Made by a program: the position numbers and the translations under genes. This document shows positions 30,664 through 47,517 of a stretch of DNA of 64,000 bases, one piece after another (within the stretch, counting starts at the first letter, position 1; each line of letters opens with the position of its first letter). Origin of the DNA: Gemmatimonadota bacterium (GTDB taxonomy: Bacteria; Gemmatimonadota; Gemmatimonadetes; Gemmatimonadales; GWC2-71-9); assembly GCA_025350665.1 (NCBI GenBank), contig JANXXJ010000131.1:7262-71261 (forward strand). Reading direction: 5' to 3'. The notes under the pieces are model-generated. The model was given only the letters and a program-made list of their open reading frames with translations. It had not been told where the DNA came from and did not search any database.

Positions 30664-30781
30664 GCCCGACCCCGGTAATGGATCGGCCCAAGCTAGCCGC
30701 CGGTCCGATGGGTCGCCAGCGCAGCCGTAGGTGACGGGCCGTTTCCGGGCTATTTTTCATCCTCCTGCAACCGACGCTGGC

Positions 30782-32335
30782 ATGGCCGACCCCAGACGGC
30801 TGGGCATTCTCCTCGTCCGACCTGAGATCGTCGCACCTGATCTGCTTCGGCAGCAGGCCGCCGAGGCCTTGGTGGACCTGACCATCGAGGTAGTCGGATC
30901 GATCGCCGACGCCGCGGCCAGGGCGGCCCTGGCCGGCCCCGACGCCGTCGTCATCGGCGGGCCCGTCACGGTCGCCGAGGTGGCGCGGTTTCCAGCCCGC
31001 CTGCCCGTCTTCGTCGTGGCCGAGGTGACGGCGGCGGAAGAAAACGCGTTGATCCTCACCGGCGCGGCCGGCGTTTTTGCCCCAGGCCGGCTCTCCCGGC
31101 TCCCGACCGCGCTGGCCAGGGAATCGACCATCGCGGTGGAGCACGCGAGTCTGCTCCAGGCCGAGACCGACCGGACCCGGCTGCTGGCTCAGCTGGTCCA
31201 TGCCCAGAAGATGGAAGCGATCGGTACGTTGGCCGGAGGCCTCGCCCACGACCTCAACAACGTGCTCATGGGGATTCTCGGCAATGCGGAAATGGCGGCG
31301 GAGGACGTTGGAAGCAGCCACCCCGCCCAGGGCAATCTCGCCGACGTGATCCGCGCCGCGAATCGGGCCCGCGACGTGGTGCAGCGAGTCCTGACCTTCA
31401 GCCGGAAACGGGAACCAGCCCGCCGGAGCGACCAGCTGCCGCAGGTGGTCGACGACGCCGTGGTCCTGCTCCGCGCGACCCTGCCGGCCACGATCGAACT
31501 CGTGGTCCGCCACGAGCCCGATCCGCCGCCGGTGTCGATCGACGCCAACCAGATCAATCAGGTCATTACCAACCTGGCCACCAACGCCAGAGACGCGATT
31601 GGGAGCCGCCCCGGCACCATCACCATCTCGTCCGCGGTGATCGACGTGGACCGCACCCTGGCCCGGACTCATGTGAACCTTGCCGTGCGCCGCTACGTTC
31701 GGCTCTCGGTCGCCGACGACGGTCCGGGCATCGCCCCGGATATCCTGCCGCGAGTGTTCGAACCGTTCTTCACCACCAAAGCACCCGGAGCCGGTACCGG
31801 GCTTGGCCTGGCGGTAGCGCACGGCATCATCGAGGAGCATGACGGGGCCATCACCATGGAGTCCACGATGGGGCGTGGAACAACGGTGCGCCTCTACCTG
31901 CCCGCTCTCGAACCGGCCCGGACCAGCGACGACGCCGGGGCCGCCACGCCGCGAGGCGCCGGCGAAGCCGTCCTCCTCGTCGACGACGAAGCGATGGTCG
32001 TCCGGATTGGCGTCCGCATGCTCGAGCGTCTTGGCTATCGGGTGACCGCCGCCGACAGTGCAGCCGCGGCGCTCGAGCTCTTCCGGGCCGAGCCGTCCCG
32101 GTTCCAGGTCGTCATTTCCGATCTCACCATGCCCGGGCATACCGGTCTCGACCTCGCCCGCCGATTCCGGGCCCTGAATCCCCAGATCAAGTTCATCTTG
32201 ACCACCGGCCATCTGGGGGCGGAACAGCATGCCCTGCCCGATACCGACGCGCTGCTCACCAAGCCATTCGCGGCCTCCCGTCTGGCGCAGGTCCTGAACG
32301 AAGTCCTGCACCCGCATGAGAGCATCACCTCGTGA
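30782..32335 (+). CDS. cytoplasmic hybrid sensor histidine kinase (pseudo-receiver-like N-domain, HisKA, HATPase_c, C-terminal receiver)
   Basis: H-box LAGGLAHDLNNVLMGILGNAEM. ATPase boxes NLATNARDA, VADDGPGI and GTGLGLAVAHGI. Receiver VLLVDDE...VISDLTMPG...LTTGH...KPF. The start is either ATG 30782 or GTG 30731. Confidence 0.85.
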   Translation: MADPRRLGILLVRPEIVAPDLLRQQAAEALVDLTIEVVGSIADAAARAALAGPDAVVIGGPVTVAEVARFPARLPVFVVAEVTAAEENALILTGAAGVFAPGRLSRLPTALARESTIAVEHASLLQAETDRTRLLAQLVHAQKMEAIGTLAGGLAHDLNNVLMGILGNAEMAAEDVGSSHPAQGNLADVIRAANRARDVVQRVLTFSRKREPARRSDQLPQVVDDAVVLLRATLPATIELVVRHEPDPPPVSIDANQINQVITNLATNARDAIGSRPGTITISSAVIDVDRTLARTHVNLAVRRYVRLSVADDGPGIAPDILPRVFEPFFTTKAPGAGTGLGLAVAHGIIEEHDGAITMESTMGRGTTVRLYLPALEPARTSDDAGAATPRGAGEAVLLVDDEAMVVRIGVRMLERLGYRVTAADSAAAALELFRAEPSRFQVVISDLTMPGHTGLDLARRFRALNPQIKFILTTGHLGAEQHALPDTDALLTKPFAASRLAQVLNEVLHPHESITS

Positions 32336-33102
32336 GCCCCGACCGCAACCAAGGAACCCCTTCGCGTATGACCGGGAGCCCTCTCAGAACGGCGATCGTC
32401 GCCGGACTGGTCCGACACAAGAACGCCAAGCAGGCCGCCGCCGCGCGAGCCTATCTCAAGTCCGCGATGCCGTGCTACGGTGTCCAGGCACCCCTTCTCC
32501 GGGAAATCTGCACCGAAGTGTTCGGTCGTTTTCCGATCAGCATGGCCGCCGACTGGCGGCGCGCCGTCTCTGAACTGTGGGATCAAGCCACCCACCGCGA
32601 GGAACGGTACGCGGCGATTGAACTCGCGACCCACCCACCCTACCAGCGATTCATCTCCCTCGCCCTCTTGCCGGTATATCGGCGGATGATCCAGGAAGGC
32701 GGCTGGTGGGATCTGGTCGATCCGCTGGCCCATCGGGTCGCCGTACTCCTCGCCACCTACCCTGACCGGATCAAACCGACGCTGCGGGCCTGGGCCCGGT
32801 ACGACAATATCTGGCTCCGGCGGGTCGCGATCATCAGCCAGATCACGTTCAAGGACCAGACCGACACCACCCTGCTCTACGACTGCATCACCCCGTCGAT
32901 CGGCTCATCAGAGGTCTTCCTCCGGAAAGCCATCGGCTGGGCGCTCCGTGAATTCGCCCGGACCAACCCTGCCGAGGTCAAGCGATATCTCGCGGCCGAA
33001 GGCGCCGGTCTTTCACCCTTGTCCAAACGGGAAGCGCTAAAAGGCGCTGCGCCCTCGAAAAAACCAGGCCCCACCAAACGACCAGTCCGGAGAGCCAAAT
33101 GA
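32332..33102 (+). CDS. DNA alkylation repair (AlkD-like HEAT repeat) protein
   Basis: 256 aa. Has ...NAKQAAAARAYLKSAMPCYGVQAPLLREI...EERYAAIEL...WWDLVD...NIWLRRVAI..Q...FLRKAIGWALREFAR, typical of the family. The GTG start overlaps the HK stop (GTGA). Confidence 0.8.
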   Translation: MSPDRNQGTPSRMTGSPLRTAIVAGLVRHKNAKQAAAARAYLKSAMPCYGVQAPLLREICTEVFGRFPISMAADWRRAVSELWDQATHREERYAAIELATHPPYQRFISLALLPVYRRMIQEGGWWDLVDPLAHRVAVLLATYPDRIKPTLRAWARYDNIWLRRVAIISQITFKDQTDTTLLYDCITPSIGSSEVFLRKAIGWALREFARTNPAEVKRYLAAEGAGLSPLSKREALKGAAPSKKPGPTKRPVRRAK

Positions 33103-34712
33103 AACGACGTGAGTTTGTCGGGGCGACGATTGCCGGGGGCCTCGCCGCCAGCCCCAAATCCGGAAGAACCCCTGCCACCGCGGCCGCTCGGCCCGACACC
33201 GCCGTCCGCCAGGCGTTCGAGCTGGACGAAACCACCATCGCCGCGCTGCAGGATGGCATGCAGGCCGGCCGTTATTCCGCCCGGCGGATCACCGAGCTGT
33301 ACCTCGATCGGATCGAAGCCGTCGACCGTCGCGGGCCCAGGGTCAACTCGGTAATCGAGGTGAATCCAGACGCCCTCGCGATCGCCGAGACCGCCGATCA
33401 GGAGCGGACTGCCGGGCGCGTCCGCGGGCCCTTGCACGGCATTCCAATTCTGATCAAGGACAACATCGACACGGCCGACCGGATGCAAACCACGGCCGGC
33501 TCGCTCGCACTCGAGGGCTCGATTGCGCCCCGCGACGCCTTCATCGTGAGCCGGCTGCGCGAAGCCGGGGCCGTACTGCTTGGCAAGACCAACCTGAGCG
33601 AGTGGGCCAATTTCCGATCGAGTAGTTCCTCCAGCGGCTGGTCGGGTCGCGGCGGTCAGACCAGGAACCCATACGTTCTGGACCGGAGTCCCTGCGGCTC
33701 GAGCGCGGGTTCGGGGGCCGCCGGATCGGCCAACCTGGCGGCGATCACGATTGGCACCGAAACCGATGGCTCGATCGTCTGCCCGTCATCGTCCAACGGT
33801 CTGGTCGGCATCAAGCCTACCGTCGGACTATGGAGTCGATCCGGGATCATCCCGATTTCGTCGACCCAGGACACGGCCGGGCCCATGTGCCGGACCGTCA
33901 CGGATGCGGCCACCCTGCTCGGGCCGCTCACCGGCGCCGACCCGCGGGATGCCGCCACTCGCGGCAGTAGCGGCCATGCCCTCGCCGACTATCGCCGCTT
34001 CCTCGACGCCGGCAGTCTCAAAGGGGCCCGCCTCGGCGTGATGCGGAAACACCTGGGCGTCAGCGCCAAGACGGAAGCCGTATACGACGAGGCACTCAAA
34101 GCCCTCGCCGCCGCCGGGGCCGTCCTGGTCGACCCCGTGGACTTCGCCGCCCCGGAGCCACTCGGCGCCGCCGAATGGCAGGTCCTGGCCTACGAGTTCA
34201 AGGTCGGTGTCGAAGCCTACCTCGCGTCGCTGGGTGGCCGCGTACCCCATCGTACGCTCGCCGATTTGATCCGATTCAATGAGGAGCACCGCGATCGGGA
34301 GATGCCGTATTTCGGGCAGGAGACCTTCCTGCTGGCTGAAAAGGCGGGCGCGATGGGCACGGCGAAGTATCAGGCGTTGCTGGTAAAGTGTCGCCGGCTG
34401 GCACGCACCGAGGGCCTTGACGCCAGACTCGCCGGGCACCGGCTCGACGCGGTGGTCAGCGTCACCGCCGGCCCATCCTGGGCGATCGACCTCGCCAACG
34501 GCGATCGGTCCACCGGCGGAAGCTCGACCTACGCGGCCGTGGCGGGATATCCATCGATCACCGTACCGATGGGAAACGTCCACGGTCTCCCCGTCGGCCT
34601 CCTGTTCGCCGGACGAGCCTGGAACGAAGGGCGTCTGATTGGACTGGCGTTCGGCTTCGAGCAGGCCACGAAGGCTCGCAGGGCCCCGACTTTCCGCCCG
34701 ACCATCGGCTGA
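33099..34712 (+). CDS. amidase (amidase-signature family), TAT-type signal
   Basis: 537 aa. Has MKRREFVGATIAGGLAA, the AS motifs GPLHGIPILIKDNID and GGSSAGSGAAGSANLAAITIGTETDGSIVCPSS. Confidence 0.9.
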   Translation: MKRREFVGATIAGGLAASPKSGRTPATAAARPDTAVRQAFELDETTIAALQDGMQAGRYSARRITELYLDRIEAVDRRGPRVNSVIEVNPDALAIAETADQERTAGRVRGPLHGIPILIKDNIDTADRMQTTAGSLALEGSIAPRDAFIVSRLREAGAVLLGKTNLSEWANFRSSSSSSGWSGRGGQTRNPYVLDRSPCGSSAGSGAAGSANLAAITIGTETDGSIVCPSSSNGLVGIKPTVGLWSRSGIIPISSTQDTAGPMCRTVTDAATLLGPLTGADPRDAATRGSSGHALADYRRFLDAGSLKGARLGVMRKHLGVSAKTEAVYDEALKALAAAGAVLVDPVDFAAPEPLGAAEWQVLAYEFKVGVEAYLASLGGRVPHRTLADLIRFNEEHRDREMPYFGQETFLLAEKAGAMGTAKYQALLVKCRRLARTEGLDARLAGHRLDAVVSVTAGPSWAIDLANGDRSTGGSSTYAAVAGYPSITVPMGNVHGLPVGLLFAGRAWNEGRLIGLAFGFEQATKARRAPTFRPTIG

Positions 34713-34760
34713 AAATCGGTTGGGCTTTCCGGCCGCCGAAGACCCTGGCATCTTCGGAAC

Positions 34761-35405
34761 ATGATGATCGCTCGCGTCCGCCGAATCGGGAGCCTGGCCG
34801 CCGTCTTCTGCGGTCTGGCTGGAGCGCCCGCTGCCGGCCAACCCCCCGCTGGACGGCTGTCGAACGACGGCGTGGCCCGGGCCGCGTCACAGGTGGACTC
34901 CGTCTTCGTAGGGCGAACCAAGGCCGATGGACGGGTGGAAGGCGGGGACTGGGCCTCCTACCTGCTTGCCCGCCTCGGGACCGGCCGAATCCCCGACAGC
35001 CTCGGTATCCAGGTCGGCATCGATTCCACCCATATCGAGGTCCGGGGCCGGCTGCAGGACCTTCCCCATGAGGCCCGGGCACTATTGGGCCCGTTGGCCC
35101 ACATGGTCGATTCCGCCACGGTGGTCATCGCGGAGGTCGTGATGGAACGTACCGGCCGTCAAGTCGAGCGGTTCTGGCTTCGGGGACTGCGAGTCAACGG
35201 CTTTCTGTTGCCCGAATTTGTCCTTGGATCGATGATGGCGTCGGTCGGTCGGCAATACCCCGCCCTCACGGCCTCAGGCCGGGACCTGTATGTCCAGATT
35301 CCGACCGATGGACGCCTGACGCTCGGCGACGGCGCGCTCCTCATCGCGGTATCGCCGCCCGCACCCGATACCACCGACCGCCAGCCTCCGCCTAGGAAAC
35401 CCTGA
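34761..35405 (+). CDS. hypothetical secreted protein
   Basis: 214 aa with an N-terminal signal-like segment (IGSLAAVFCGLAGAPAAGQ). I recognised no family. Confidence 0.5.
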   Translation: MMIARVRRIGSLAAVFCGLAGAPAAGQPPAGRLSNDGVARAASQVDSVFVGRTKADGRVEGGDWASYLLARLGTGRIPDSLGIQVGIDSTHIEVRGRLQDLPHEARALLGPLAHMVDSATVVIAEVVMERTGRQVERFWLRGLRVNGFLLPEFVLGSMMASVGRQYPALTASGRDLYVQIPTDGRLTLGDGALLIAVSPPAPDTTDRQPPPRKP

Positions 35406-35932
35406 TGCCCGCCGATCTGCGCTATCCCATCGGCCCGTTCGTCTTCGCCGATACGTTCACCGAAAGCGACCGGCGCGAGGCCATTGGCAGGATCAAGACG
35501 GCGCCCGCTCGGTTTCGCGCGGCAGTCGCGGGCCTCGATGACCCGGCGCTCGACACGCCCTACCGGCCCGATGGCTGGACGGTGCGGCAAGTCGTTCACC
35601 ACGTTGTCGACAGCCACCTGAACGCCTACACTCGCTGCAAGCTGGCCCTCACCGAGGACCACCCGACCATCCGGCCATACGACGAGGCCAAATGGGCCGA
35701 ACTCCCCGACTCGCGACGCCCGCTCGTCGGCTCCCTCGGCCTGCTCGACTGGCTCCACGAGCGGTGGGTCAGTCTGCTCGAGGCTACGCCACCAGTCGAG
35801 TTCTCCCGCACGTTCTACCATCCGGAAGGGCGAATCTCGGTCAGTTTGGACCGCATGGTGGCCACCTACGCCTGGCACGGAGACCATCACCTTGCCCACA
35901 TCACCGACCTCCGCCGTCGCCAGGGCTGGTAA
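35405..35932 (+). CDS. YfiT/DinB-family putative metal-dependent hydrolase (bacillithiol-transferase-like)
   Basis: 175 aa. Has LRYPIGPF......Y.PDGWTVRQVVHHVVDSHLNAY.R.KLALTED.PTI.PYDE..WAEL...YAWHGDHHLAHI, the classic YfiT pattern. Confidence 0.8.
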   Translation: MPADLRYPIGPFVFADTFTESDRREAIGRIKTAPARFRAAVAGLDDPALDTPYRPDGWTVRQVVHHVVDSHLNAYTRCKLALTEDHPTIRPYDEAKWAELPDSRRPLVGSLGLLDWLHERWVSLLEATPPVEFSRTFYHPEGRISVSLDRMVATYAWHGDHHLAHITDLRRRQGW

Positions 35933-36551
35933 CGCGCTGCGAACCGGCCGCGGCTTGGCGGTGGTCCTCACGGCGGCAGCCCTGATGATGGTGGTCGGTG
36001 GAGATTGGGGCGGCCAGGTCGCAACCTATCTGCCCTGTCGGCGAAACTGGGGCTGGCTCCCGTCCTACCAGCCCCGAGTCAGCCCCATCCGGTCCGCAAC
36101 CACAAGTCTCGGGACCGTGCGGATCAAAGTGTGTTACGGGGCCCCGGAATCTCGGGGCAGGCGAATGCTTGGCGGCTCGCTCGTACCGTTCGGGCGGCTT
36201 TGGCGGACCGGGGCGAACGAACCCACCACCCTCAGACTAGGAGGGTCCATCGTTCTTGGCGGCATTACGATTGGCGCCGGCAAGGTTTCCCTCTACACCA
36301 TTCCTGGCCCAGAGACCTGGGAACTGATCATCAATCGCTCGACCAGTCAGTGGGGCCTCGAATCAGAGTACGTACCCTCGGTCGCAGCCCAGGAAATCGG
36401 CAGGGTCGTACTGCCCAGCCAAACCACCGAGGCGCCGGCCGAGGAACAACTGCGGTTCGCGTTCGAACCGGGCGCCAAACCTCACGAGGCCGTTCTCGTC
36501 ATGGCGTGGGAAACGACCCGCCTTCGGATTCCGGTCCGGCTCCCGCCCTGA
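35892..36551 (+). CDS. DUF2911 domain protein (start uncertain)
   Basis: Has ...KVCYGAPESRGRRMLGGSLVPFGRLWRTGANEPTTL.....GKVSLYTIPG.ETWELIINR. The TTG at 35892 overlaps the previous gene by 41 nt. The true start may be slightly downstream. Confidence 0.65.
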   Translation: MPTSPTSAVARAGNALRTGRGLAVVLTAAALMMVVGGDWGGQVATYLPCRRNWGWLPSYQPRVSPIRSATTSLGTVRIKVCYGAPESRGRRMLGGSLVPFGRLWRTGANEPTTLRLGGSIVLGGITIGAGKVSLYTIPGPETWELIINRSTSQWGLESEYVPSVAAQEIGRVVLPSQTTEAPAEEQLRFAFEPGAKPHEAVLVMAWETTRLRIPVRLPP

Positions 36552-36680: not shown

Positions 36681-36880
36681 CGACATGAGAATATTCACAA
36701 TACGACGTCGTTTACATTTGTTATATTGCTCAAATATATACAGTTACATGACTTTAACTAGCGATTTCAATGTTAGGAGTCTTAAACGCAACGTCGACTG
36801 AATATTTGTCGAATCAATTTAACATAATATCACGTTTCGTCTTCGATTTGCGCCAACCAGAAAAAACAAGCCCAAGATAT
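36681..36880 (+). promoter_or_regulatory. AT-rich island with palindromes and sigma70-like promoter (TTTACA-N18-TATATA at 36711-36740)
   Basis: I hand-counted 69 G/C in 200 nt. Palindromes are GAATATTC (36689-36696) and ACGACGTCGT (36702-36711). A partner arm lies at 36789-36807. The island sits directly upstream of the 36950 gene. Confidence 0.45.
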
Positions 36881-36949
36881 GCAATGCCTCGTCACGATGA
36901 CTCGCGCCCGCATATCGGGCTGCCCGGGATCAGCCAAGGATTTCTGAAG

Positions 36950-39874
36950 ATGGCGCAAGAGGCACGAACCGAAACGGCACCCCCCACCCCCTCCAAATCG
37001 GAGGCGAAGCGCCCGGCGAACCTCCGGCGCCGATTCCAGTTGCGGACCCTGCGCGACCGGCTGGTGGCCGCCGTAGTCGTTACCGGCGTGACGATCGCCC
37101 TCGGAGCGGCCTTCTTGCTCGGTCGCGCCGCGCTCGCCGTTCGTGATCTGGAACGCAACCAGTACGCTGGCATGGCTTCCGAAACCCGGATGCGCCTCGA
37201 TCGGCTGGTCAACCGCGATCGCTCGCGGTTGATCGAAGCCGCCTACTCGGACCAGCTCTACGCCCAAGTCGGTCGTGGCATCGCGCCTCCCGACTCCATG
37301 ATCCACCCGCCATTCGGCAATCAATTCCCCTCCCAGTTCGGAGACCGGTTCATCGCCGTCTACGACCTCGCCGGAAAGGCCCTGTACCGATGGACCGATG
37401 AGTCCCTGCCCGACGTCGAACACCTCGTCACCGGCAACGCCCTCTTTCGAATGCTCGACAATCGAGAGCCCACCATCGGCCTGGTCCGCAACGGCGAGGA
37501 GCTCTATTGGGTCGGGGGTGTCCCCGTCCTGCCGACCAATTTTACCGATCAGACCCAGCCGATTCGCGGCTATCTCGTCGTCGCCCAACGCTTCAATCCC
37601 GCCACGCTGGCCCCTGGCACCGGTGACCGCTCGGCTCGCTTCGAACTGGCTCCGCTCGCCAACTTGAAAACGCCGTTTCAGACCCGCGTCGACGCGGCTG
37701 GCAGTCGTGATAGTGTGCGCGTCACGTTCTCGCTCCCGGACGTCTTTGCTCAGCAAACGACGCTCGCCACGCTCACCACGGGCCGGGCCGAGTACCGAAC
37801 GATCGAATCGACCCTGCGCTGGCTGATGCTTGCGGCCGTGATCGGTGCTGCCGGGATCGCCGGCGGCCTGTTCGTCGCCGCCAGACGCTTCCTCGTCGAG
37901 CCGGTTTCTCGTCTGTCGGCGGCCATGGTCCCGTCCCAGAACAATCCATTCCCGTCGCTGATCGGTTCGGTCTCGACCGCCAAGGAATGGAACCGGCTGA
38001 CCGGCGCCATCAACCGGCTGTTGACCCACAGCCGAGGCAGTCAGGATCGGCTTGACCGCCTGACCGGGGTCACGGCGGACGGAGCGTTCGAACGGGACCT
38101 GAGCACCGGTGACTGGACCGTCAGTCCTCGATTCCGTCAAATGCTCGGCCTGGCAGGACCAGAGCCACTGCCTGCCGTCCTCGGCGAAAAACTCGCCCCG
38201 GACGAATCGATGAATGAGTTGATGGCCTGGCTCCAGGCGGAGTCCCCTGAGCCACGTTCGTTCGCGCGGACGATCATTCGCCGAGCCGGAGGCGAGCCCC
38301 TCCGGTTCGAAGCCACGGTCGGTACGGACACAGCCGGCGTACCCAACCGCATCACGGGACGGATCTCCGATCCAGGCGCGGAAGTCGCCTTGCAGGACAC
38401 GCTGGCCAAGGCTTCGGCCGAACGCGACGCCGGACGGGCTGCCCAGGGCCGCTTCCTCGCCGCGATCGCCGAATCGTGGGCCGCTAGGCCCACGCCACCC
38501 GCCGAAACCATCGAGCACCTCCGAACGATCGGCGCCGGGCTCGAAGGGACGCTCGCCGCCAAGGCCGAGGAATTCGACCTGTACGCGCTGCTCCAGGAGC
38601 TCGCGAACCTTGAGCCCGGCGCCGACCTGCGGATCGTACCGGGAGTTCCCGAGCAGGTCGCAGGCGATCGCCGGCTGCTGCGGTCAGCGATCCTGGCCTT
38701 CCTGGGCACCGCCGACCGAAGCACCCGGGCGGTCTTGCGAGCCGATCAGCCAAACCGACTCGCACCCGACCGCGTTCGAATTGCGGTCGAGGACCATCGG
38801 GTCATCCCGGTCGCTGAGGCGGCGGTGATCAGCCGCACCCTCGAGACCGGCGACGCCGGGGGGACGGATCCGCAGCTCGACTGGCGTGCCGTCCACTTCC
38901 TGGCCCAAGCCCTCGGTGGGACGGCCGCACTGACCATCGATGGCGACCTCGCGACCCGATCGCTCACGGTCCTTCTGCCTGAGGTGGCAGCAGCAGCGCC
39001 CGCTGCGCCGGAAACGGTCGACCCGGTAGCCGATCCCGTGTTGTGGGCCAGCGACAACGCCGACGCCACCTTTCAAGAACCGTCCCAGGGGTCCGATCGG
39101 CCGTCGCGGGCGGAACCCGTCATCCAACTGGTCGCCGACGCCACCGTCACGATCGATTTCGATCGCGACATGACCGTTGACGACGTCGCCATCGGCGCTC
39201 AATTCGCCGGCGACCTCGCAAAGGGAACGGATGACGCGGTCCGAACCGCCAGGATCGCTTTGGCCGAGATCCCGGCCCGTCTGCGCCAGCTGCGCGGCGG
39301 CGTCCAGGCGGGGGAAGCCCGCACCGCCATCGAGAACGCCATCGCCATCGAGCGCGTCGGTGTGCTCCTCGGCGCGACCGAACTGACGCATCGATGCCGC
39401 GATCTGATCGACGCTGCCGAGCACTCCTACCTCGACACGGCGGAGCAACTGCTGACAGGCCTCGACCAGGCCTGGAGTCGAACCGGTGATGCACTCGGCC
39501 CGATGTTCGCGTCGCCCGCGCCGGAATCGCCGGCCATTGACCCGGCCACGCTCGAACAATTGATGGCGTCGCTCGGCGAAGGCGCGCTCGGTACTCAGCT
39601 CGTCACGTTGTTCGTCGGCGAGGCCCCGGAACGAATCGAAGCCATCGGGCGCGCGGCGGCCGCAGGCAATCTGGTTGAAGTCGGCACCCTCGCCGAAGAC
39701 CTGAAGGGGATGTGTGGGCTCGTCGGCGCACTGCCGATGGCACGCCAGTGCGATCTGACCCGGTTGGCGAACGGCACCGGTGCTGTCGTCACCGCGGTCG
39801 GGGCCTTACGACACGAATGGGAACGAGTCCAGCGGGTACTGGATCAACTTACGAGCGCCCGGATTGGCGCCTGA
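36950..39874 (+). CDS. membrane sensor with degenerate histidine-kinase core (TM, CHASE4-like periplasmic domain, TM, HAMP-like, PAS, His-less DHp, degenerate HATPase, two His-less Hpt-like bundles)
   Basis: The start is ATG 36950, or alternatively 36884. The 36770 ATG lies in AT-rich sequence with atypical codons. TM1 is VAAVVVTGVTIALGAAFLLG. The periplasmic block ..IAVYDLAGKALY..ELYWVGGVPVLP..IRGYLVVAQRF is CHASE4-like. TM2 is LMLAAVIGAAGIAGGLFVAA. The PAS-like block is GAFERDLSTGDWTVSPRFRQMLGL. The H-box position reads GRFLAAIAESWAARPTP, with no His. Confidence 0.75.
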   Translation: MAQEARTETAPPTPSKSEAKRPANLRRRFQLRTLRDRLVAAVVVTGVTIALGAAFLLGRAALAVRDLERNQYAGMASETRMRLDRLVNRDRSRLIEAAYSDQLYAQVGRGIAPPDSMIHPPFGNQFPSQFGDRFIAVYDLAGKALYRWTDESLPDVEHLVTGNALFRMLDNREPTIGLVRNGEELYWVGGVPVLPTNFTDQTQPIRGYLVVAQRFNPATLAPGTGDRSARFELAPLANLKTPFQTRVDAAGSRDSVRVTFSLPDVFAQQTTLATLTTGRAEYRTIESTLRWLMLAAVIGAAGIAGGLFVAARRFLVEPVSRLSAAMVPSQNNPFPSLIGSVSTAKEWNRLTGAINRLLTHSRGSQDRLDRLTGVTADGAFERDLSTGDWTVSPRFRQMLGLAGPEPLPAVLGEKLAPDESMNELMAWLQAESPEPRSFARTIIRRAGGEPLRFEATVGTDTAGVPNRITGRISDPGAEVALQDTLAKASAERDAGRAAQGRFLAAIAESWAARPTPPAETIEHLRTIGAGLEGTLAAKAEEFDLYALLQELANLEPGADLRIVPGVPEQVAGDRRLLRSAILAFLGTADRSTRAVLRADQPNRLAPDRVRIAVEDHRVIPVAEAAVISRTLETGDAGGTDPQLDWRAVHFLAQALGGTAALTIDGDLATRSLTVLLPEVAAAAPAAPETVDPVADPVLWASDNADATFQEPSQGSDRPSRAEPVIQLVADATVTIDFDRDMTVDDVAIGAQFAGDLAKGTDDAVRTARIALAEIPARLRQLRGGVQAGEARTAIENAIAIERVGVLLGATELTHRCRDLIDAAEHSYLDTAEQLLTGLDQAWSRTGDALGPMFASPAPESPAIDPATLEQLMASLGEGALGTQLVTLFVGEAPERIEAIGRAAAAGNLVEVGTLAEDLKGMCGLVGALPMARQCDLTRLANGTGAVVTAVGALRHEWERVQRVLDQLTSARIGA

Positions 39875-39888: not shown

Positions 39889-42800
39889 ATGACTGACATC
39901 GAACGCGACTCGAAGCAGGCGACCCCCCGTCCGGGATCGACCCCGCAACGACCCGGAGTGAACGACTACCTGCTGGCGATGGGCCACGAGCTCCGGGCGC
40001 CGCTCAACGGCGTCATCGGCATGTCCGGACTCTTGCTGGACGGGGATCTGACGGCGCAGCAGCGGCAGTACGTCAAGAGCGTTCATTCCGCCGGCGAGAG
40101 CCTTGGCGCGATTCTCAACGACATCCTTGATCTGGCCCGGGTCGCTTCCTCCCGCCTGATCGTCGAGCCAATCCCCTATGATCTCAAATCGATGATCGAG
40201 GAAACCGCGAGCGTCCTGACCCCGCGAGCCGGCGAACGCGGTCTCGGCCTCCGCGTCGATCTCCGGCCCGAACTGCCCCGGCACGTGATCGGCGACCCGG
40301 GCCGGACCCGCCAAGTGCTCGGCAACCTCGTGGGCCACGCGGTCAACGCCACGAGTCAAGGTGAGATCGTCATCCGGGTCATGGCCGACGGCGAGAGTGG
40401 CGAGCACGCCTGGGTTCGATTCGTCGTCGAAGACACCGGCATCGGAATGTCCGCCGAGCGGTTGCAGCGGGTGTTCGATGAGTACGTCCAGGTCGATGCA
40501 TCGCCGTACCGATCGTTCGGCGTCACCGGCCTCGGGCTCCGCCTCTCGGCCGAACTGGTCCGCCTGATGGGCGGCGAGATCGGCGCCGAGAGTACGCCTG
40601 GAAAGGGCAGTCGGTTCTGGTTCACCCTTCCGCTCGTGGTCGCGGAACCGGCCGGCGGCCAGGCGCTTTCAAGTCGGAATCTGCTTCAGGGAGGGCGGGC
40701 CCTCATCGTCGAGGCCGATCCGGCCAGCCGGTCGCGCTTCGTTGAGCAATTCGACGCGGCCGACTGGGACGTCGCGTTTGTCGAGGATATCGACCGGGTG
40801 GTCGGCGAATTGCGCGAAGGCGCGGCCATCGGCAACCCGTACAACGCCTGCGTATTCTCGCACTACGCCGTCCGGCCGGTCCACGCGGAGATCGCGACCC
40901 GGCTCAAGGCCGACCCCGCGCTCGCGAAGGTCGCGCTGGTCATGATCACGGCGGTGGGCAGCCCGGGCGAAGGCAAGAAACTCTGGCATGCCGGGTTCAC
41001 GGCCTATCTTCGTCGCCCGGTTCCCGGTGAAGAAATCCGCGAGGCGCTTCAAGTCATCGAACGATCTGGACCCGATGGACGGGTGGACAACCTGGTGACC
41101 CGGCACTCACTCGCCGAGGCCCGGAACGCCCAGTCATTCGCGGTCGAAGGTATCGATCAGATGCTCGCCAGCCTCGGAACAGCGGAAGGCACCCGCCGGA
41201 CGCTCGTGATCCCGATCGCCGAACTCGGCACCGTATCCGAGCTGTTTGACCAGCGCGGGCTCGCGGCCGACACGGCGACGACGCTCGACCATGCACTCGC
41301 CCTGCTTGGTCAAGGCCGTTACGAATGCATCGTCCTCGACGTGAGGGGGCGGGCCGACCTGATCGGCGACGTGAAGTCGATTCGGGAGCGCCTGGCCGCG
41401 CAGGGCACGATCCCGATCGTCGCCGTTGCCGACGCCACGACCGACATCAACGCCCTGATCGGCATCGGCCTGGATGAGGTGTGGACCGCGCCGGTGGACG
41501 CCGAGCAGATTGACCGGGCACTGGCCCGCTGGCAGGAGGGCGGTCCGTCCCTTGAGATCGTCGCAGCCCCAGCAACCGAAACCGTGGAACCAGCCGTGGT
41601 CGCTGAGTCGGCGACGACAGTGGAACCGCCCGTCGAAGAACCTGCGTTGGTCGAGAGCCCGGTCGTGGCGGCGATCATCGAGCCACCGGTGCCGGAACCG
41701 GCAGCAGTGATCGAGAGCTGGCCGGCCGAAGCGGCCGCCGCCAAAGCCGCCCCCCGGTGGTTCACCGAAGTGCCGTTGTTCGCCGCGCCCGCGGCGGCGA
41801 CCCGGTCGCCGGACCCGGTCGCCGTGGTCGAGGCCCCCGCGCCTGTGGCGCCTGAGTGGGAGACGGTCGCCGCGGCGGAGCTGCCGGCGCTCACCCTGCC
41901 GGTGATCGAAGCACCGATCGTGGAGGCCATCGTGTTCGGGGCTCCCGCGGTGGAAGCAGCGGAGACGTCTCCCGTACCAACGGACGCGGCGCCGACGCCG
42001 CTCGACGGTCTGACGGACGCACAATGGGAGGCGCACGTCCCGGTTGCCGCCATCGATGGATTCCTCGCGACCGAGACGGACCAGATGTCCCCAGTCGCGG
42101 ACGCGATTATCGAAACGGTCGATGTCGCTCCGCCGGAAATCGTCCCAGGCGAGGCTCCAACTCCCGACGCCATCGTCGAGGCGATCGCCCTCGACTCGAT
42201 GATACCGATGGCGATCCCGGGCGAGCTGGCGGCCGATCTCGTGCCGCCCGCCGTGGACCCGGCCGAGCCGGCCATGGCACCAATCATCCTGCTGCAACCG
42301 GCGGCGGTCTTTGAGCCGGTGGCCGGGGTGGCGAACCCGGAGCCCGAACCGGTGGAGGTCACCCTTCTGGCCCCCGTCGAGGAGCCGGCCGTCGTGCCGG
42401 CCCTCAGTCAGGATCTCACAGCCTCAGGCGAGGCCGAGCTTGGTTTGACCGGCAACGAGCCTTCGGTTGAACCCAGGTCGGGACCTGCCGCACCGGCCGC
42501 GGAGCCGGACGCGTCGCTCGATGCCGTCAGCCCGGCGCTGCTCGAGCAGGCGCTTGCCGGCGGCGGGTTCTTCACCCAGTACCAGATCGCCAGTTTTTTG
42601 CGGGAAGTGCCATCGCGAATCACGGACATCGCGACGGCGGCCACCCGGGGCGACGGGGGCCGGGTCACGGAGCAGCTCACCCGCCTCCGACGCCTCGTGG
42701 CAGCCGTCGGCGCGACCCGGATCGACGCGGTCGCCGCACGCATGGAGGCTCTGGTGGCGGGTGAGCAGCTCGAAGCCGCGACGGCCCTGCTGGGTGGGAT

Positions 42801-43215
42801 CGAGCACGCCTTCCTCGACGCCCGCCAAGCCCTGGAATTGGCCTCACCGCACGGCCTGCCGACCGACGCGCCGGCGATTGGGATCAGTTTTGCCGAGCAG
42901 CTCTCGCCCGCAAAGGAGGGCGCTGCTCGCTCGCTGGCGCAGAAATTGGCCGCATCGTTCACCGCCGACGCGCCGAAACGACTTGCGGACCTGCGGCTCG
43001 CGGTCGCCGATGCGGATAGTGACGGGGTTCAGCGGGTGGCCCAGACCTTCAAGGGGATGTGCGGCTTGATCGGCGCCGAGTGGCTCGCCAAGCTGGTGGC
43101 GCTGGCCGAGGCGGATGCGCGGCTCAAGCGTGTCACCCACGCCGAACGGTATCTCGAGCACATCGACCTCGAGCTCGGGCGGGTACTCACGATGCTCGAA
43201 CGTCTCCAGGCCTGA
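39889..43215 (+). CDS. soluble histidine kinase (N-terminal HisKA and HATPase_c) with two degenerate receiver-like domains, a long P/E/V/A-rich linker and two His-less Hpt-like bundles
   Basis: ATG 39889, 14 nt after the upstream stop. The H-box is LLAMGHELRAPLNGVIGMSGLL. ATPase boxes are LGNLVGHAVNAT, VEDTGIGM and GLGLRLSAELVRLMGGEI. No TM or sensor domain precedes the H-box. Confidence 0.8.
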   Translation: MTDIERDSKQATPRPGSTPQRPGVNDYLLAMGHELRAPLNGVIGMSGLLLDGDLTAQQRQYVKSVHSAGESLGAILNDILDLARVASSRLIVEPIPYDLKSMIEETASVLTPRAGERGLGLRVDLRPELPRHVIGDPGRTRQVLGNLVGHAVNATSQGEIVIRVMADGESGEHAWVRFVVEDTGIGMSAERLQRVFDEYVQVDASPYRSFGVTGLGLRLSAELVRLMGGEIGAESTPGKGSRFWFTLPLVVAEPAGGQALSSRNLLQGGRALIVEADPASRSRFVEQFDAADWDVAFVEDIDRVVGELREGAAIGNPYNACVFSHYAVRPVHAEIATRLKADPALAKVALVMITAVGSPGEGKKLWHAGFTAYLRRPVPGEEIREALQVIERSGPDGRVDNLVTRHSLAEARNAQSFAVEGIDQMLASLGTAEGTRRTLVIPIAELGTVSELFDQRGLAADTATTLDHALALLGQGRYECIVLDVRGRADLIGDVKSIRERLAAQGTIPIVAVADATTDINALIGIGLDEVWTAPVDAEQIDRALARWQEGGPSLEIVAAPATETVEPAVVAESATTVEPPVEEPALVESPVVAAIIEPPVPEPAAVIESWPAEAAAAKAAPRWFTEVPLFAAPAAATRSPDPVAVVEAPAPVAPEWETVAAAELPALTLPVIEAPIVEAIVFGAPAVEAAETSPVPTDAAPTPLDGLTDAQWEAHVPVAAIDGFLATETDQMSPVADAIIETVDVAPPEIVPGEAPTPDAIVEAIALDSMIPMAIPGELAADLVPPAVDPAEPAMAPIILLQPAAVFEPVAGVANPEPEPVEVTLLAPVEEPAVVPALSQDLTASGEAELGLTGNEPSVEPRSGPAAPAAEPDASLDAVSPALLEQALAGGGFFTQYQIASFLREVPSRITDIATAATRGDGGRVTEQLTRLRRLVAAVGATRIDAVAARMEALVAGEQLEAATALLGGIEHAFLDARQALELASPHGLPTDAPAIGISFAEQLSPAKEGAARSLAQKLAASFTADAPKRLADLRLAVADADSDGVQRVAQTFKGMCGLIGAEWLAKLVALAEADARLKRVTHAERYLEHIDLELGRVLTMLERLQA

Positions 43216-43370: not shown

Positions 43371-46300
43371 GTGTCGATCCACCTCACGCCCAGTAGCGTT
43401 GCCACCCTGGCCATCCTTCTGGTTGGTTCCTCGGTTCAAGCACAGCGCAACCGTTCGACCGCGGCGCCGACGCCACTGGCTCCGGCTTTCAATGCCCTGC
43501 AGGGGCTCGAATGGCGCAACGTCGGACCGTTTCGGGGCGGGCGGGCCACGACGATTGCGGGCGTCGCCGGGCAACCGATGGTGTACTACATGGGCGCCAC
43601 CGGCGGCGGGATCTGGAAGACCACCGATGCCGGTGCCTCGTGGCGACCGATTGCCGACGGGCAGATCCAGATGGGCTCCGTCGGTTCGATAGCGGTCGCA
43701 CCCGACGACCCCAACGTGCTGTACGCCGGCATGGGGGAGGCGCCGGTCCGGGGCGTATCGTCCTCGTGGGGCGACGGGGTTTACAAATCGACGGACGCGG
43801 GAACGACCTGGCGACACATTGGGCTGGGACAGAGCCGGACCATTTCACGAGTGATTGTCCACCCGAAGAACGCGGAAATCGTTTACGTGGCCGCGCAGGG
43901 CAGCCGTTGGGGACCGAGTGCCGAACGCGGCGTCTACCGGAGCCAGGATGGTGGCAAGAGCTGGAATCTTCTGCTCAAAGGGGATTCGCTGACCGGTCCG
44001 AGCGACCTCGCCATGGACCCGACCAATCCCCGGATTCTCTACGCCGCGATGTGGGATGCGCAGCGCACGCCGTGGTACGCCCGGAGCGGCGGCCCCGGGA
44101 GCGGTATCTGGAAATCCAACGACGGTGGCGATACCTGGTCGCGCCTGACGAAGGGGCTGCCCGGGATCATGGGCAAGATCGGAGTGGCGGTGTCCGCCTC
44201 AAACCCGGCTCGGGTCTGGGCCAACATCGAAGCCGAGAACGGCGGTCTGTTCCGATCCGACGATGGAGGTCTGTCCTGGCAGCTGATCAACGGCGACCGA
44301 GTACTCCGCGCCCGGGCATGGTATTACACCAGGGTGACCGCGGATCCCAATAACGCTGACGTCGTCTATGTGATCAACGCGCCGGTGCTCAAATCGATCG
44401 ACGGCGGCAAGAGCTTCACACCACTGCCTGATCCCCATGGCGACAATCACGACCTCTGGATCAACCCGGCCAACTCGATGAATCTCGCCAAGGCCGATGA
44501 TGGCGGTGCGGTGATTTCATTTACCGGGGGGGCGCAATGGTCCTCGAACCAGAACCAGCCGACGGCCCAGTTCTATCGAGTCAGCGTGGATGACCGGTAC
44601 CCCTATTGGCTCTATAGCGGCCAGCAGGACAATTCATCCGTCGCCATCCCGAGCGCGACGGCCGGCCCGGGCATTCCCAACGAAGCCTTTCACGACGCGG
44701 GCGGATGCGAAAGCGCGCACGTGGCGTTCGACCCGGCCAATCCCCGATATCTCTACGCCAACTGCTATCACGGGATCCTCGGTGAGTACGATCAGGAGTT
44801 TCGGCTGGAACGCAACGTGATGGCGAACCCGATTCTGGGCCTGGCCGAACCTTCGGACCAACTCAAGTATCGCTGGAACTGGTCGAGCCCGATCATCACC
44901 TCGCCACACGACCGGACCGTGATCTACCACGGCGCGAACGTGCTGCTCAAGTCGAGTGACCGGGGCCAGAGCTGGACCGAGGTCAGCCCCGACCTGACCC
45001 GCAACGACAAGGCCCATCAGGGACTGGGTGGCGGGCCGATTACGAACGAGGGTGCCGGCGGCGAGGTCTATGGTACCATCTACTATATCGCGGAGTCGCC
45101 CCACGAGCCGGGTGTGATCTGGGTGGGCACCGATGACGGCCTGGTCCAGCTCACCCGGGATGGCGGCAAGACGTGGACCAACGTCACCCCGAAGGGCCTG
45201 CCTGAGTCCCTGGTCAACATGGTGGAAGTCTCGCCGTTCGATAAAGCCACGGCCTACGTCGCCGTCAGCCGGCACAAATGGAACGACAACGCGGCGTACA
45301 TCTTCCGGACCACCGACTACGGCGCGACCTGGACCCGCCTGATCGGCGGGCTGCCGGACGGCGACGTCGTGAGGGTGGTCCGGGAGGACCCGAAACGGCG
45401 AGGCCAGTTGTATGCCGGCACCGAGACCGGTTTCTGGATCTCGACCAATGATGGCGCCGACTGGCAACGGTTGCAGTTGAATCTGCCGCACGTGCCGATC
45501 ACTGACATCCGGATCCACCATGGAGATCTCGTGATCTCGACCGAAGGCCGAGCCTTCTGGATCCTCGACGACATCGCACCGATCCGCGAGATCTCGAGCG
45601 ACATCGCCCGGGCGGCGCTGCATCTCTTCCAGCCCAGGACCGCTGTCCGTTCGAATCTCGGCAGTGATGCCGCGGTCCCGGGCATGGGCCGGAATCCACC
45701 GCAAGGAGCCGTCTTCAGTTTCCTGATCCAAGCGGTGGACACTGCCACGGCGTCGAAGCTCGAGATTCTGGGACCGACCGGCGCAGCGATTCGGACCTAC
45801 TCGTCTACCGCCAAGCCGAATGAGGGGTCGAAGCTCGTCGTGAAGGCGGGCTTCAACCGGGTTGGGTGGGACCTCAAGGGCGAGGCACCGACCCGGGTGG
45901 CCGGGATTCTGGCAGGCGAGGGCGGCGGCCCCGGGGGCTACCGGGTCGCGCCCGGACACTATCAAGCCAGGCTGACGGTCGGAACCGAGAGTCGAACGGC
46001 GAGCTTCGACGTCGTCGCGGATCCACGGACCCATCCTTCCGAGGCCGACCTGCGCGGCCAGCAGGAATGGCTCGGCCGGATCTGGAATCGGGTCGACGAC
46101 ATCGATCGGAGGGCCGTGACGTTGCGCGGCGTCCGCGATCAGCTGAAGGCGCTGATCGACCGGACCCGGGAACCGACCGATTCGATCGTCGTGGCAGGCA
46201 AGGTCCTGGTCGCGGCGATCGATTCAATCGAAGCGGTCATGATCAGCACCAAGGCCAAGACGTTCCAGGACGTGATCAATTTCAGGCACGGCATTGCGGA

Positions 46301-46517: not shown

Positions 46518-46530
46518 CGGGAGTCATACC

Positions 46531-46689: not shown

Positions 46690-46693
46690 GCCG

Positions 46694-47515: not shown

Positions 47516-47517
47516 TC

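What the first reader, a model, noticed from the sequence alone, without database searches (positions are those of the whole stretch)
38441..38960. The kinase core of the sensor protein lacks the phospho-His and the ATP-binding boxes
A normal HisKA reads ..FLAN[MV]SHELRTPLN.. at the H-box. This protein reads AAQGRFLAAIAESWAARPTPPAETIEHL (nt 38441-38520). The helix context is kept (GRFLAAI.), but the S-H-E triplet is replaced by E-S-W.

In the following HATPase-like region:
- the N-box Asn position reads RLLRSAILAFLGTADRS, with no Asn
- the D-x-G-x-G box reads IAVEDHRVIPV
- the G2 box GLGL is missing before ..FLAQALGGTAALTIDG

The fold appears retained while catalysis looks lost, which is the definition of a pseudokinase.
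Basis: partly seen in the sequence, partly recalled or inferred. Interest (0 to 1): 0.6.

Follow-up and report, generated by a model that had tools for sequence, protein, structure and literature searches.

The report
Membrane sensor with a dead kinase core
A membrane sensor protein of an uncultured Gemmatimonadota bacterium keeps the fold of a histidine kinase but has lost the phospho-accepting histidine and the ATP-binding motifs, so it most likely signals by contact with the kinase-like protein encoded next to it; such "pseudokinases" are known, but this family is undescribed.

Summary
Window 36950-39874 (+) encodes a 974-aa protein: TM, periplasmic CHASE4, TM, PAS, helical hairpin, alpha/beta domain, then two Hpt-like bundles. 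Pfam finds no HisKA or HATPase_c in it.

The hairpin plus alpha/beta domain (nt 38375-38974) is nevertheless a diverged kinase core:
- Family profile against solved structures: RetS 1e-10, GacS 3e-7, DivL.
- hhalign to canonical cores: 98.7%, E=2e-16.
- AlphaFold pLDDT 89; Foldseek top hits RetS, DivL, GacS, HK853.

Residue mapping shows the losses. The Mg-binding Asn is Thr. DxGxG reads D-H-R-V-I. GxGLG reads P-Q-L-D-W. No hairpin column holds His in more than 3 of 17 orthologues.

Divergent orthologues keep the Asn and GLGL, which gives an evolutionary gradient. dN/dS is about 0.25, so the domain is still under selection.

Both Hpt-like domains also lack the His. The gene always sits directly upstream of a paralogous GacS-like gene (16 of 16 loci). 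That partner's Mg-Asn is never Asn, and its receiver and Hpt domains are degenerate too.

Verdict: a real histidine pseudokinase, a new variant of a known kind (RcsD, RetS, DivL, PsmA). Its mechanism is inferred, not shown.

The parts
36950..39874 (+). Gene 1: a 974-aa membrane sensor pseudokinase (identical to P0001). The ORF is open from 36770, but the orthologues start at MAQEART.
37049..37129 (+). Transmembrane helix 1 (aa 34-60)
   Evidence: Kyte-Doolittle peak of 2.45; long helix in the full-length model
37244..37786 (+). Periplasmic CHASE4 sensor domain (aa 99-279)
   Evidence: Pfam PF05228, 5.9e-8, above its cut-off, and hit in 17 of 17 orthologues. It is the most conserved domain (pairwise identity 0.60; dN/dS 0.085).
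37814..37885 (+). Transmembrane helix 2 (aa 289-312)
38081..38368 (+). Cytoplasmic PAS domain (aa 378-473)
   Evidence: PAS_3 is hit in 12 of 17 orthologues; alpha/beta fold in the model
38375..38545 (+). DHp-like helical hairpin without a phospho-acceptor His (helix 1 aa 476-511, helix 2 aa 518-532). It is about 30 residues shorter than a canonical DHp.
   Evidence: helices; no column has His in more than 3 of 17; only the end of helix 2 can be aligned
38567..38974 (+). CA-like (HATPase_c-like) alpha/beta domain with the ATP-binding boxes lost. T587 sits at the Mg-Asn position (38708-38710). D615-H-R-V-I replaces DxGxG (38792-38806). P641-Q-L-D-W replaces GxGLG (38870-38884).
39125..39163 (+). 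Invariant linear motif (Q/E)LVADATVTIDFD inside an otherwise disordered linker (aa 685-743)
   Evidence: Present in 27 of 27 family members and 0 of 51 gene-2 orthologues; pLDDT below 50 around it
39197..39508 (+). Hpt-like four-helix bundle A (aa 750-853). The His position is Ile.
   Evidence: collinear with Hpt-like 1 of gene 2
39542..39868 (+). Hpt-like bundle B (aa 865-973). It hits Pfam Hpt, but HxxKG reads E916-D-L-K-G (39695-39709).
39889..43215 (+). Gene 2: a cytoplasmic GacS/BarA-like hybrid kinase homologue (identical to P0018), starting 14 nt after the gene 1 stop. The H-box His is present (39985-39987). The N-box reads NLVGHAVNAT, with the Mg-Asn replaced by His. G1 and G2 are intact. 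The first receiver-like domain has Ser at the phospho-Asp site. A long Pro/Ala/Glu-rich linker follows, then two Hpt-like domains without His.

Best explanation
Nt 38375-38974 encode the degenerate dimerisation (DHp) and catalytic (CA) module of a histidine pseudokinase.

The protein is a two-pass membrane sensor. A periplasmic CHASE4 domain is followed in the cytoplasm by PAS, the dead kinase core, a disordered linker carrying an invariant LVADATVTI motif, and two Hpt-like helical bundles that also lack the phospho-His.

It cannot autophosphorylate or relay phosphate. That is inferred from the missing His, Mg-binding Asn and G1/G2 glycines.

Proposed mechanism, all of it inferred:
1. Ligand binding to CHASE4 changes the conformation of the cytoplasmic dimer.
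2. That change is passed by direct protein contact to the product of the co-transcribed downstream gene, a paralogous cytoplasmic GacS-like protein.
3. The contact could be a DHp/DHp heterodimer of the RetS-GacS type. It could instead be docking of the Hpt-like bundles or the linker motif on the partner's pseudo-receiver or Hpt-like domains.

The pseudokinase core would then act as a conformational transmitter and dimer scaffold, not as an enzyme.

Evolutionary order, read from the family gradient: a tandem duplicate of a hybrid kinase lost the acceptor His first, then lost its ATP-binding boxes in most lineages, including this one.
For: Homology to the kinase core:
- The family profile hits RetS 1.1e-10, GacS 3.2e-7 and DivL 0.015.
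- hhalign against canonical cores gives 98.7%, E=1.8e-16 over 157 columns.
- One orthologue, P0016, still hits Pfam HATPase_c at 7e-15 at the aligned position.

Fold:
- AlphaFold pLDDT 89, pTM 0.81, showing a hairpin plus an alpha/beta sandwich.
- Foldseek: RetS 6e-12, DivL 5e-11, GacS 5e-10, HK853 about 1e-9 to 1e-8.

Loss of catalytic residues in the window and in 16 of 17 orthologues, and in further loci. Divergent members keep the Asn and GLGL, but none has a conserved His.

Still under selection: dN/dS is 0.25-0.28 against the 80%-identical orthologue, compared with 0.085 for CHASE4.

Partner gene:
- Gene 1 is directly followed by gene 2 in 16 of 16 loci. In the window the gap is 14 nt.
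- The C-terminal tandem Hpt-like pairs of the two proteins are collinear homologues (29% identity, E=1e-10).
- Both kinase cores match GacS and RetS best.

Precedents for kinase-dead HK homologues that signal by contact: DivL (PMC4211667), PsmA (PMC12963549), and RcsD with its inactive HATPase domain (PMC7418988).
Against: No interaction has been shown or modelled.

The gene order of the whole 15-kb neighbourhood is conserved in these genomes. Adjacency therefore partly reflects vertical inheritance. The tight spacing or overlap still argues for co-transcription.

The DHp-like and CA-like parts are the least conserved folded parts of the protein (pairwise identity 0.32 and 0.42). They could be little more than a spacer.

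The partner's own catalytic competence is doubtful. Its Mg-Asn is never Asn, and its His is missing in 11 of 51 orthologues. The final output of the pair is unknown, and no response regulator gene lies nearby.

The AlphaFold model rests on only 15 sequences.
Confidence: 0.6

Rival explanations
1. Structural relic or spacer. The dead kinase core has no signalling role of its own. It only holds the dimer together and links PAS to the C-terminal Hpt-like output domains, which together with the LVADATVTI motif do the real work.
For: The DHp-like and CA-like parts are the least conserved folded regions (identity 0.32 and 0.42, against 0.51-0.60 for CHASE4 and the Hpt-like domains). Their dN/dS is 2-3 times that of CHASE4 and Hpt-like B. 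The hairpin is truncated. The linker motif is invariant in 27 of 27 members.
Against: dN/dS of 0.25 is still clearly purifying. Family-specific motifs sit where the lid and N-box region used to be: PGVP..V.GD, LRAEQPDR, LETGE and VHHLA.ALGG. That suggests a conserved surface rather than free drift.
Confidence: 0.2
2. Repurposed ligand-binding domain. The CA-like pocket binds a nucleotide or second messenger as an allosteric input. The precedent, from my own knowledge, is c-di-GMP binding to the CA domain of CckA.
For: Divergent orthologues (P0016, P0148, P0149, P0153 and the L016 gene) keep the N-box Asn and a GLGL-like G2. P0016 and the L016 gene still hit Pfam HATPase_c. They may therefore still bind ATP even though no acceptor His exists.
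Against: In the window protein and its clade the Asn and all G1/G2 glycines are gone, and the lid is 5 residues shorter. There is no direct evidence for any ligand.
Confidence: 0.1
3. Cryptic active enzyme. The protein still autophosphorylates or shuttles phosphate through a non-canonical residue, for example H523 in ETIEHL, or acts as a Spo0B/ChpT-type phosphotransferase.
For: A His lies in the second hairpin helix of the window protein. One divergent orthologue, P0153, has a His exactly at the E508 position. One member gives a weak hit to the ChpT-type HPTransfase family (E=0.17).
Against: H523 is present in 2 of 17 orthologues and aligns to DHp helix 2. No hairpin column has His in more than 3 of 17. 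The ATP-binding residues are missing. Both Hpt-like domains lack the His as well.
Confidence: 0.04
4. Decaying pseudogene or mis-called ORF.
For: A GC-rich genome gives many long spurious ORFs, and several overlap this one on the minus strand.
Against: Full-length orthologues at 37-80% identity occur in at least 16 loci, with intact frames and Pfam domains at both ends. Whole-gene dN/dS is 0.165.
Confidence: 0.02

Closest known systems
RcsD (YojN) of the enterobacterial Rcs phosphorelay
   Same: An inner-membrane protein with a periplasmic domain, a PAS-like domain, a kinase-like region with an inactive HATPase domain and no acceptor His, and a C-terminal Hpt domain. It works together with a hybrid kinase (RcsC) (PMC7418988, and my own knowledge).
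   Different: The Hpt domain of RcsD is functional (His present) and relays phosphate to RcsB. Here both Hpt-like domains lack the His. There is no detectable sequence relationship (no RcsD model hit in NCBIfam). The sensor domain here is CHASE4, and the partner's receiver is degenerate.
RetS, which acts on GacS (Pseudomonas aeruginosa)
   Same: It is the best sequence and structure match of the dead core. RetS is a sensor-kinase homologue that acts on another kinase (GacS) by direct contact, including DHp heterodimerisation (PDB 7N0E; PMC12148439 describes this as non-canonical crosstalk). The partner gene here is GacS-like (E=4e-55).
   Different: RetS keeps its H-box His and most ATP-box residues. 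It has two receiver domains and no Hpt, and it is not encoded next to gacS. The protein here has lost every catalytic motif, and its DHp is truncated.
DivL (Caulobacter crescentus)
   Same: A histidine-kinase homologue without the acceptor His that signals by protein contacts to a hybrid kinase (CckA). It is the second-best fold match (PMC4211667, PMC5361649).
   Different: DivL has Tyr at the His position and an otherwise recognisable HisKA/HATPase_c. It has no CHASE4 and no Hpt-like domains, and it belongs to a different phylum.
PsmA (Streptomyces venezuelae)
   Same: A conserved hybrid-kinase-like protein lacking both the H-box His and the ATP-binding residues. The residue at the His position varies among orthologues. 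It was shown experimentally not to autophosphorylate (PMC12963549).
   Different: PsmA is cytoplasmic, binds DivIVA at hyphal tips, has a receiver domain and no Hpt, and has no paired kinase gene.
Pseudo-HPt proteins such as Arabidopsis AHP6
   Same: An Hpt fold in which the phospho-accepting His is replaced, acting without phosphotransfer. This rests on my own knowledge; the term also appears in PMC7402358.
   Different: AHP6 is a plant stand-alone protein. Here the pseudo-Hpt domains come as tandem pairs fused to kinase-like proteins in a bacterium.

Membership tests
Canonical HisKA-type sensor histidine kinase | Phospho-accepting His in the H-box of DHp helix 1 | tested here: not met
No column of aa 470-540 has His in more than 3 of 17 orthologues. 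HisKA is not hit at E<=1.
Canonical HisKA-type sensor histidine kinase | N-box Asn that binds Mg-ATP | tested here: not met
   It aligns to T587. Only P0016 of the 17 has Asn.
Canonical HisKA-type sensor histidine kinase | G1 (DxGxG) and G2 (GxGxG) boxes of the ATP lid | tested here: not met
   The window reads D-H-R-V-I and P-Q-L-D-W. HATPase_c is not hit at E<=1.
Canonical HisKA-type sensor histidine kinase | DHp hairpin plus Bergerat alpha/beta sandwich fold | tested here: met
   AlphaFold pLDDT 89. Foldseek hits RetS, DivL, GacS and HK853 with E from 6e-12 to 1e-8. The hairpin is about 30 residues short.
Histidine pseudokinase (DivL / RcsD / PsmA kind) | Demonstrable homology to the histidine-kinase core | tested here: met
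   hhalign 98.7%, E=1.8e-16. Profile against PDB: RetS 1.1e-10. P0016 is an intermediate that still hits Pfam HATPase_c.
Histidine pseudokinase (DivL / RcsD / PsmA kind) | Catalytic residues lost, yet the gene is conserved under purifying selection | tested here: met
   (residue losses); dN/dS 0.25-0.28 in the core and 0.165 over the whole gene; at least 16 loci
Histidine pseudokinase (DivL / RcsD / PsmA kind) | No autophosphorylation and no ATP binding in vitro | not testable with these tools
   This needs purified protein.
Spo0B / ChpT-type histidine phosphotransferase | DHp-like bundle with a conserved phospho-His, joined to a degenerate CA domain | tested here: not met
   A degenerate CA domain is present but there is no conserved His. 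HPTransfase is hit only at E=0.17, in 1 of 17 members.
Hpt domain (PF01627) | Profile match above the Pfam gathering score | tested here: met
   34.6 bits against a cut-off of 24.6, aa 943-999 of the ORF; hit in 17 of 17 orthologues
Hpt domain (PF01627) | Phospho-accepting His in HxxKG | tested here: not met
   Aligned to the Hpt of 7C1I (AHSFKG), the window reads A-E-D-L-K-G. The position varies across orthologues (E, D, A, G, T, N, S). Bundle A has Ile at that position.
CHASE4-containing receptor | Extracytoplasmic CHASE4 domain between two transmembrane helices | tested here: met
   PF05228, 33.4 bits against a cut-off of 26.2. Two hydrophobic helices flank it.
RetS-type kinase inhibitor | Direct DHp-DHp heterodimer with the target kinase | not testable with these tools
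   No multimer prediction or binding assay was available. Only the resemblance and the gene pairing are shown.

The most novel reading that the evidence does not exclude
The two genes together may be a complete phosphorelay (kinase core, receiver and Hpt, spread over two paralogous proteins) that has given up phosphotransfer altogether and signals only by conformational change and domain docking.

Gene 1 has lost every phospho-site.

In gene 2:
- The Mg-binding Asn is replaced in 51 of 51 orthologues.
- The first receiver's Asp is Ser in 51 of 51.
- Neither Hpt-like domain keeps the His: the last one never has it (Gln in 43 of 51), and the first has it in only 6 of 51.
- The last remaining acceptor His is gone in 11 of 51.
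- One clade has also lost the neighbouring Glu and a G1 glycine.

Despite this, all domains stay conserved.
Probability: 0.3. Interest if true: 0.7.

Novelty: new variant of a known kind. Interest (0 to 1): 0.45.

Why it matters
Histidine pseudokinases are a small but growing class (DivL, RcsD, RetS-like proteins, PsmA). This family adds an extracytoplasmic CHASE4 receptor in which the kinase core and both Hpt domains are dead.

The receptor is strictly paired with a paralogue that is itself half-degenerate. Across the family there is a natural gradient from "ATP boxes kept, His lost" to "everything lost".

That gradient could be used to ask three questions:
- In what order are catalytic features shed?
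- Which surfaces are retained once a phosphorelay turns into a contact-based switch?
- How does a periplasmic signal cross the membrane without phosphorylation?

On the practical side, automatic annotation calls these proteins "Hpt domain-containing" or "histidine kinase". Both names mislead about what they do.

Tried and rejected
- BLASTP of the region against the kinase core of gene 2 found nothing (E>3).
- Single-sequence phmmer against PDB found nothing relevant. Only profiles revealed the homology.
- hhalign restricted to the hairpin gave 23% probability and a register that does not put the H-box on helix 1.
- The Spo0B/ChpT phosphotransferase reading was rejected because there is no conserved His.
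- The pseudogene or spurious-ORF reading was rejected on conservation and dN/dS.
- A first MAFFT run timed out because the protein file held 150 records; it was rerun on a subset.
- Sigma-70 promoter and terminator scans of the AT-rich upstream region found nothing. Only a weak terminator-like hairpin lies after gene 2.
- A search for a nearby response regulator found only a hybrid kinase 4.6 kb upstream and an unrelated HK/RR pair about 20 kb away.
- The dN/dS comparisons with L004 and L005 are saturated (dS>1) and were not used.
- The contig carrying P0016 gave no DNA, and its gene 2 has no Pfam record. I did not interpret this.
Full report
**What is at the coordinates**

They lie in a long plus-strand ORF, 36770-39874. 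The orthologues all begin at the equivalent of ATG 36950 (MAQEART...), so the gene is most likely 36950-39874, 974 aa, identical to database protein P0001. The minus-strand ORFs that overlap it are the usual shadows of a 67% GC genome.

Pfam finds CHASE4 and a C-terminal Hpt domain in the protein. It finds no HisKA or HATPase_c even at E<=1, and NCBIfam adds nothing.

**Is the region really a kinase core?**

Single-sequence comparisons see nothing. Three independent profile or structure tests do.

- A profile of aa 475-704 from 15 orthologues, searched against all PDB sequences, hits RetS (1.1e-10), GacS (3.2e-7), CusS and DivL. The match covers the CA domain.
- hhalign of the same profile against canonical cores (gene 2 of the window and two orthologues, plus an unrelated hybrid kinase) gives 98.7% probability, E=1.8e-16. 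It runs over 157 columns, from the end of DHp helix 2 to the end of the CA domain.
- AlphaFold2 on the 15-sequence alignment gives pLDDT 89 and pTM 0.81. The model has a helical hairpin (residues 2-37 and 44-58 of the fragment) followed by an alpha/beta sandwich. Foldseek against the PDB returns only histidine-kinase cores: RetS 6e-12, DivL 5e-11, GacS 5e-10, HprS, CusS, ZraS, HK853.
- In addition, one orthologue (P0016, 40% identical) still scores 7e-15 against Pfam HATPase_c at the aligned position.

The fold and the homology are therefore established as far as computation allows.

**Which catalytic residues are gone**

From the alignments to GacS, RetS and gene 2, and from the family columns:

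| Canonical feature | Window protein | Family |
|---|---|---|
| Mg-binding Asn (NLxxNAxKFT) | T587 | T, S, Q, E, L, M or A elsewhere; Asn only in P0016 |
| G1 box DxGxG | D615-H-R-V-I | Asp kept in 10 of 17; glycines lost |
| G2 box GxGLG | P641-Q-L-D-W | GLGL only in P0016 |
| ATP lid length | 5 residues shorter | not counted in the other members |

In the hairpin, no alignment column holds His in more than 3 of 17 sequences. The His in ETIEHL occurs in 2 of 17 and aligns to DHp helix 2, not to the H-box.

- With FLA anchored on FLAN, S-H-E corresponds to A-E-S, not E-S-W.
- That anchoring is itself unproven. hhalign restricted to the hairpin gives only 23% probability and a different register.

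Helix 2 is 15 residues long against about 33 in a canonical core. The distance from the putative H-box to the first CA strand is 34 residues rather than about 64. The lower half of the four-helix bundle, which is where response regulators dock, therefore seems to have been deleted.

The most divergent orthologue, P0153, has a His exactly at the E508 position.

**Family and evolution**

The family is small. There are 17 clusters at 90% identity. Among 1.84 billion representatives there are about 16 full-length representatives at 50% identity, after which scores drop to PAS-only hits. All named sources are Gemmatimonadota MAGs.

The divergent members P0016, P0148, P0149, P0151, P0153 and the L016 gene keep the N-box Asn and a GLGL-like G2, but none has a conserved hairpin His. 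The likely order is His first, then the ATP boxes. The window's clade sits at the fully degenerate end.

The dead core is the least conserved folded part of the protein. Pairwise identity is 0.32 for the hairpin and 0.42 for the CA-like domain, against 0.60 for CHASE4 and 0.55 for Hpt-like B. It is still under purifying selection, though. Against the 80%-identical orthologue, dN/dS is 0.28 and 0.25, compared with 0.085 for CHASE4. Family-specific motifs also persist (PGVP..V.GD, LRAEQPDR, LETGE, VHHLA.ALGG).

**Whole-protein anatomy**

The full-length model (pLDDT 75.6) and hydropathy give this order:
- disordered N-terminus
- TM1
- CHASE4
- TM2
- a poorly modelled segment, then a helix
- PAS
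- hairpin
- CA-like domain
- a disordered linker (aa 685-743) containing the motif (E/Q)LVADATVTIxLD, invariant in 27 of 27 members
- two Hpt-like helical bundles

The last bundle passes the Pfam Hpt threshold, but its HxxKG reads E-D-L-K-G (alignment to the Hpt of 7C1I). The His position varies across the family, while the adjacent D-L-K-G-M-C-G-L is invariant. Bundle A has Ile at the His position. This protein therefore carries no recognisable phospho-site at all.

**Surroundings**

Gene 2 starts 14 nt after the stop of gene 1 (39889-43215). It has no hydrophobic segment resembling a membrane helix, so it is probably cytoplasmic. It is a GacS/BarA-like protein (GacS E=4e-55) with Pfam HisKA, HATPase_c, a sub-threshold receiver and Hpt hits.

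Gene 1 is directly followed by gene 2 in every locus examined, 16 of 16. The loci are the window, L001, L002, eleven further species-representative genomes, and three loci reached from the gene 2 side.

The C-terminal tandem Hpt-like pairs of the two proteins are collinear homologues (29% identity over 206 aa, E=1e-10). Both cores also resemble GacS and RetS best. The pair therefore looks like a tandem duplication of a hybrid kinase.

Gene 2 is itself unusual. Among 51 orthologues:
- The Mg-binding Asn is never Asn: His in 43, Tyr in 7, Gln in 1. The following Lys is Asn.
- G1 and G2 are invariant.
- The H-box His is present in only 40 of 51. One clade has also lost the adjacent Glu and a G1 glycine.
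- The first receiver-like domain has Ser at the phospho-Asp position in 51 of 51.
- The last Hpt-like domain has Gln at the His position in 43 of 51.

No response-regulator gene lies nearby. The only other two-component genes in the window are a hybrid kinase at 30731-32335 and an HK/RR pair near 60-63 kb.

**Most likely mechanism**

Shown:
- The region is a kinase-core homologue without catalytic residues.
- It is conserved.
- It sits in a CHASE4 membrane receptor.
- It is strictly paired with a paralogous kinase-like gene.

Inferred:
- The protein is a sensor pseudokinase that converts periplasmic ligand binding into a conformational change of its cytoplasmic dimer.
- It passes that change on by contact to the gene 2 product. 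The contact could be a RetS-GacS-like DHp heterodimer. It could instead be docking of the Hpt-like bundles or linker motif on the partner's pseudo-receiver or Hpt-like domains. These are the surfaces that normally mediate Hpt-receiver recognition.

I put about 0.9 on "non-catalytic kinase-core homologue" and about 0.6 on the partner-contact mechanism as a whole.

The rivals, each scored in the rival list, are:
- a mere spacer
- a repurposed ligand pocket, plausible mainly for the P0016-type members
- a cryptic enzyme
- a pseudogene

**Comparison with what is known**

Histidine pseudokinases are established:
- DivL (PMC4211667, PMC5361649).
- PsmA, shown not to autophosphorylate and with a variable residue at the His position (PMC12963549).
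- RcsD, with an inactive HATPase domain plus a working Hpt (PMC7418988).
- RetS, which acts on GacS by contact (PMC12148439; PDB 6DK7/8, 7N0E).

The present family works most like RcsD or RetS, but it fails membership of either:
- The Hpt His that defines RcsD's function is absent.
- The RetS motifs are not retained.
- There is no family-level sequence relationship beyond the generic kinase core.

It is best filed as a new variant of the pseudokinase kind. What sets it apart is the CHASE4 input, the truncated DHp, the tandem pseudo-Hpt output and the obligate pairing with a half-degenerate paralogue.

**Verdict**

Interest is moderate (0.45). The kind is known, and nothing can be tested in culture yet. 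Even so, the two-gene module may be a phosphorelay that has abandoned phosphorylation altogether. That reading would be considerably more interesting (probability about 0.3).

Noticed in passing
window 39889-43215 (+), gene 2; orthologues P0018-P0068: The partner "kinase" is itself non-canonical. The Mg-binding Asn of the N-box is never Asn in 51 orthologues (His 43, Tyr 7, Gln 1; NLVGHAVNAT against GacS NLVGNAIKFT). The H-box His is missing in 11 of 51, and one clade also loses the adjacent Glu and a G1 glycine. G1 and G2 are otherwise invariant.
   Followed up: partly
window 40696-41043 and 41233-41520 (+), receiver-like domains of gene 2: The first receiver-like domain has Ser at the phospho-Asp position in 51 of 51 orthologues (C-x-x-S-[HD]-Y-A-V-R-P). 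The second is present in only about two thirds of orthologues and lacks the conserved Lys and acidic pocket. Both look like pseudo-receivers.
   Followed up: partly
window 42571-43212 (+), the two Hpt-like domains of gene 2: Both Hpt-like domains of gene 2 lack the phospho-His: T-R-L-R-R in the first and A-Q-T-F-K-G-M-C-G-L in the second, with Gln in 43 of 51 orthologues. The K-G-M-C-G-L signature is shared with the last bundle of gene 1.
   Followed up: partly
window 39125-39163 (+): An invariant 13-residue motif (E/Q)LVADATVTIxLD lies inside an otherwise disordered, poorly conserved linker of gene 1. It occurs in 27 of 27 members and in none of the gene 2 orthologues. It resembles the first strand of a receiver domain (compare ALIVEADP in gene 2). 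It may be a docking peptide or the remnant of a deleted receiver.
   Followed up: partly
window 36690-36949 (intergenic, upstream of gene 1): This roughly 260-bp stretch is strikingly AT-rich for a 67% GC genome. Two short islands are invariant in the window, L001 and L002: AACATAATA (36821-36829) and TATGCAATG (36878-36886). No sigma-70-type promoter was found by the simple scan.
   Followed up: partly
P0015, P0017, L012, L014 (gene 1 orthologues of about 860-890 aa): One clade of gene 1 orthologues has deleted the whole first Hpt-like bundle (about 100 residues) but keeps the second bundle and the linker motif.
   Followed up: no
window 30731-36551 and 43371-52668: Gene order around the pair is conserved in distant orthologous loci: hybrid kinase, DNA-alkylation repair, amidase, DinB_2 and DUF2911 upstream; Sortilin/BNR protein, AAA_28 and amino-acid permease downstream. 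Adjacency alone is therefore weak evidence for functional linkage beyond the tightly spaced gene 1 and gene 2 pair.
   Followed up: partly
contig of P0016 (JGI 3300048101, no DNA available): In the genome whose gene 1 still has a recognisable HATPase_c, the 1064-aa downstream gene has no Pfam hit on record. This may be a gap in the precomputed table, since P0059 has the same length and does carry kinase domains. It could not be checked.
   Followed up: no
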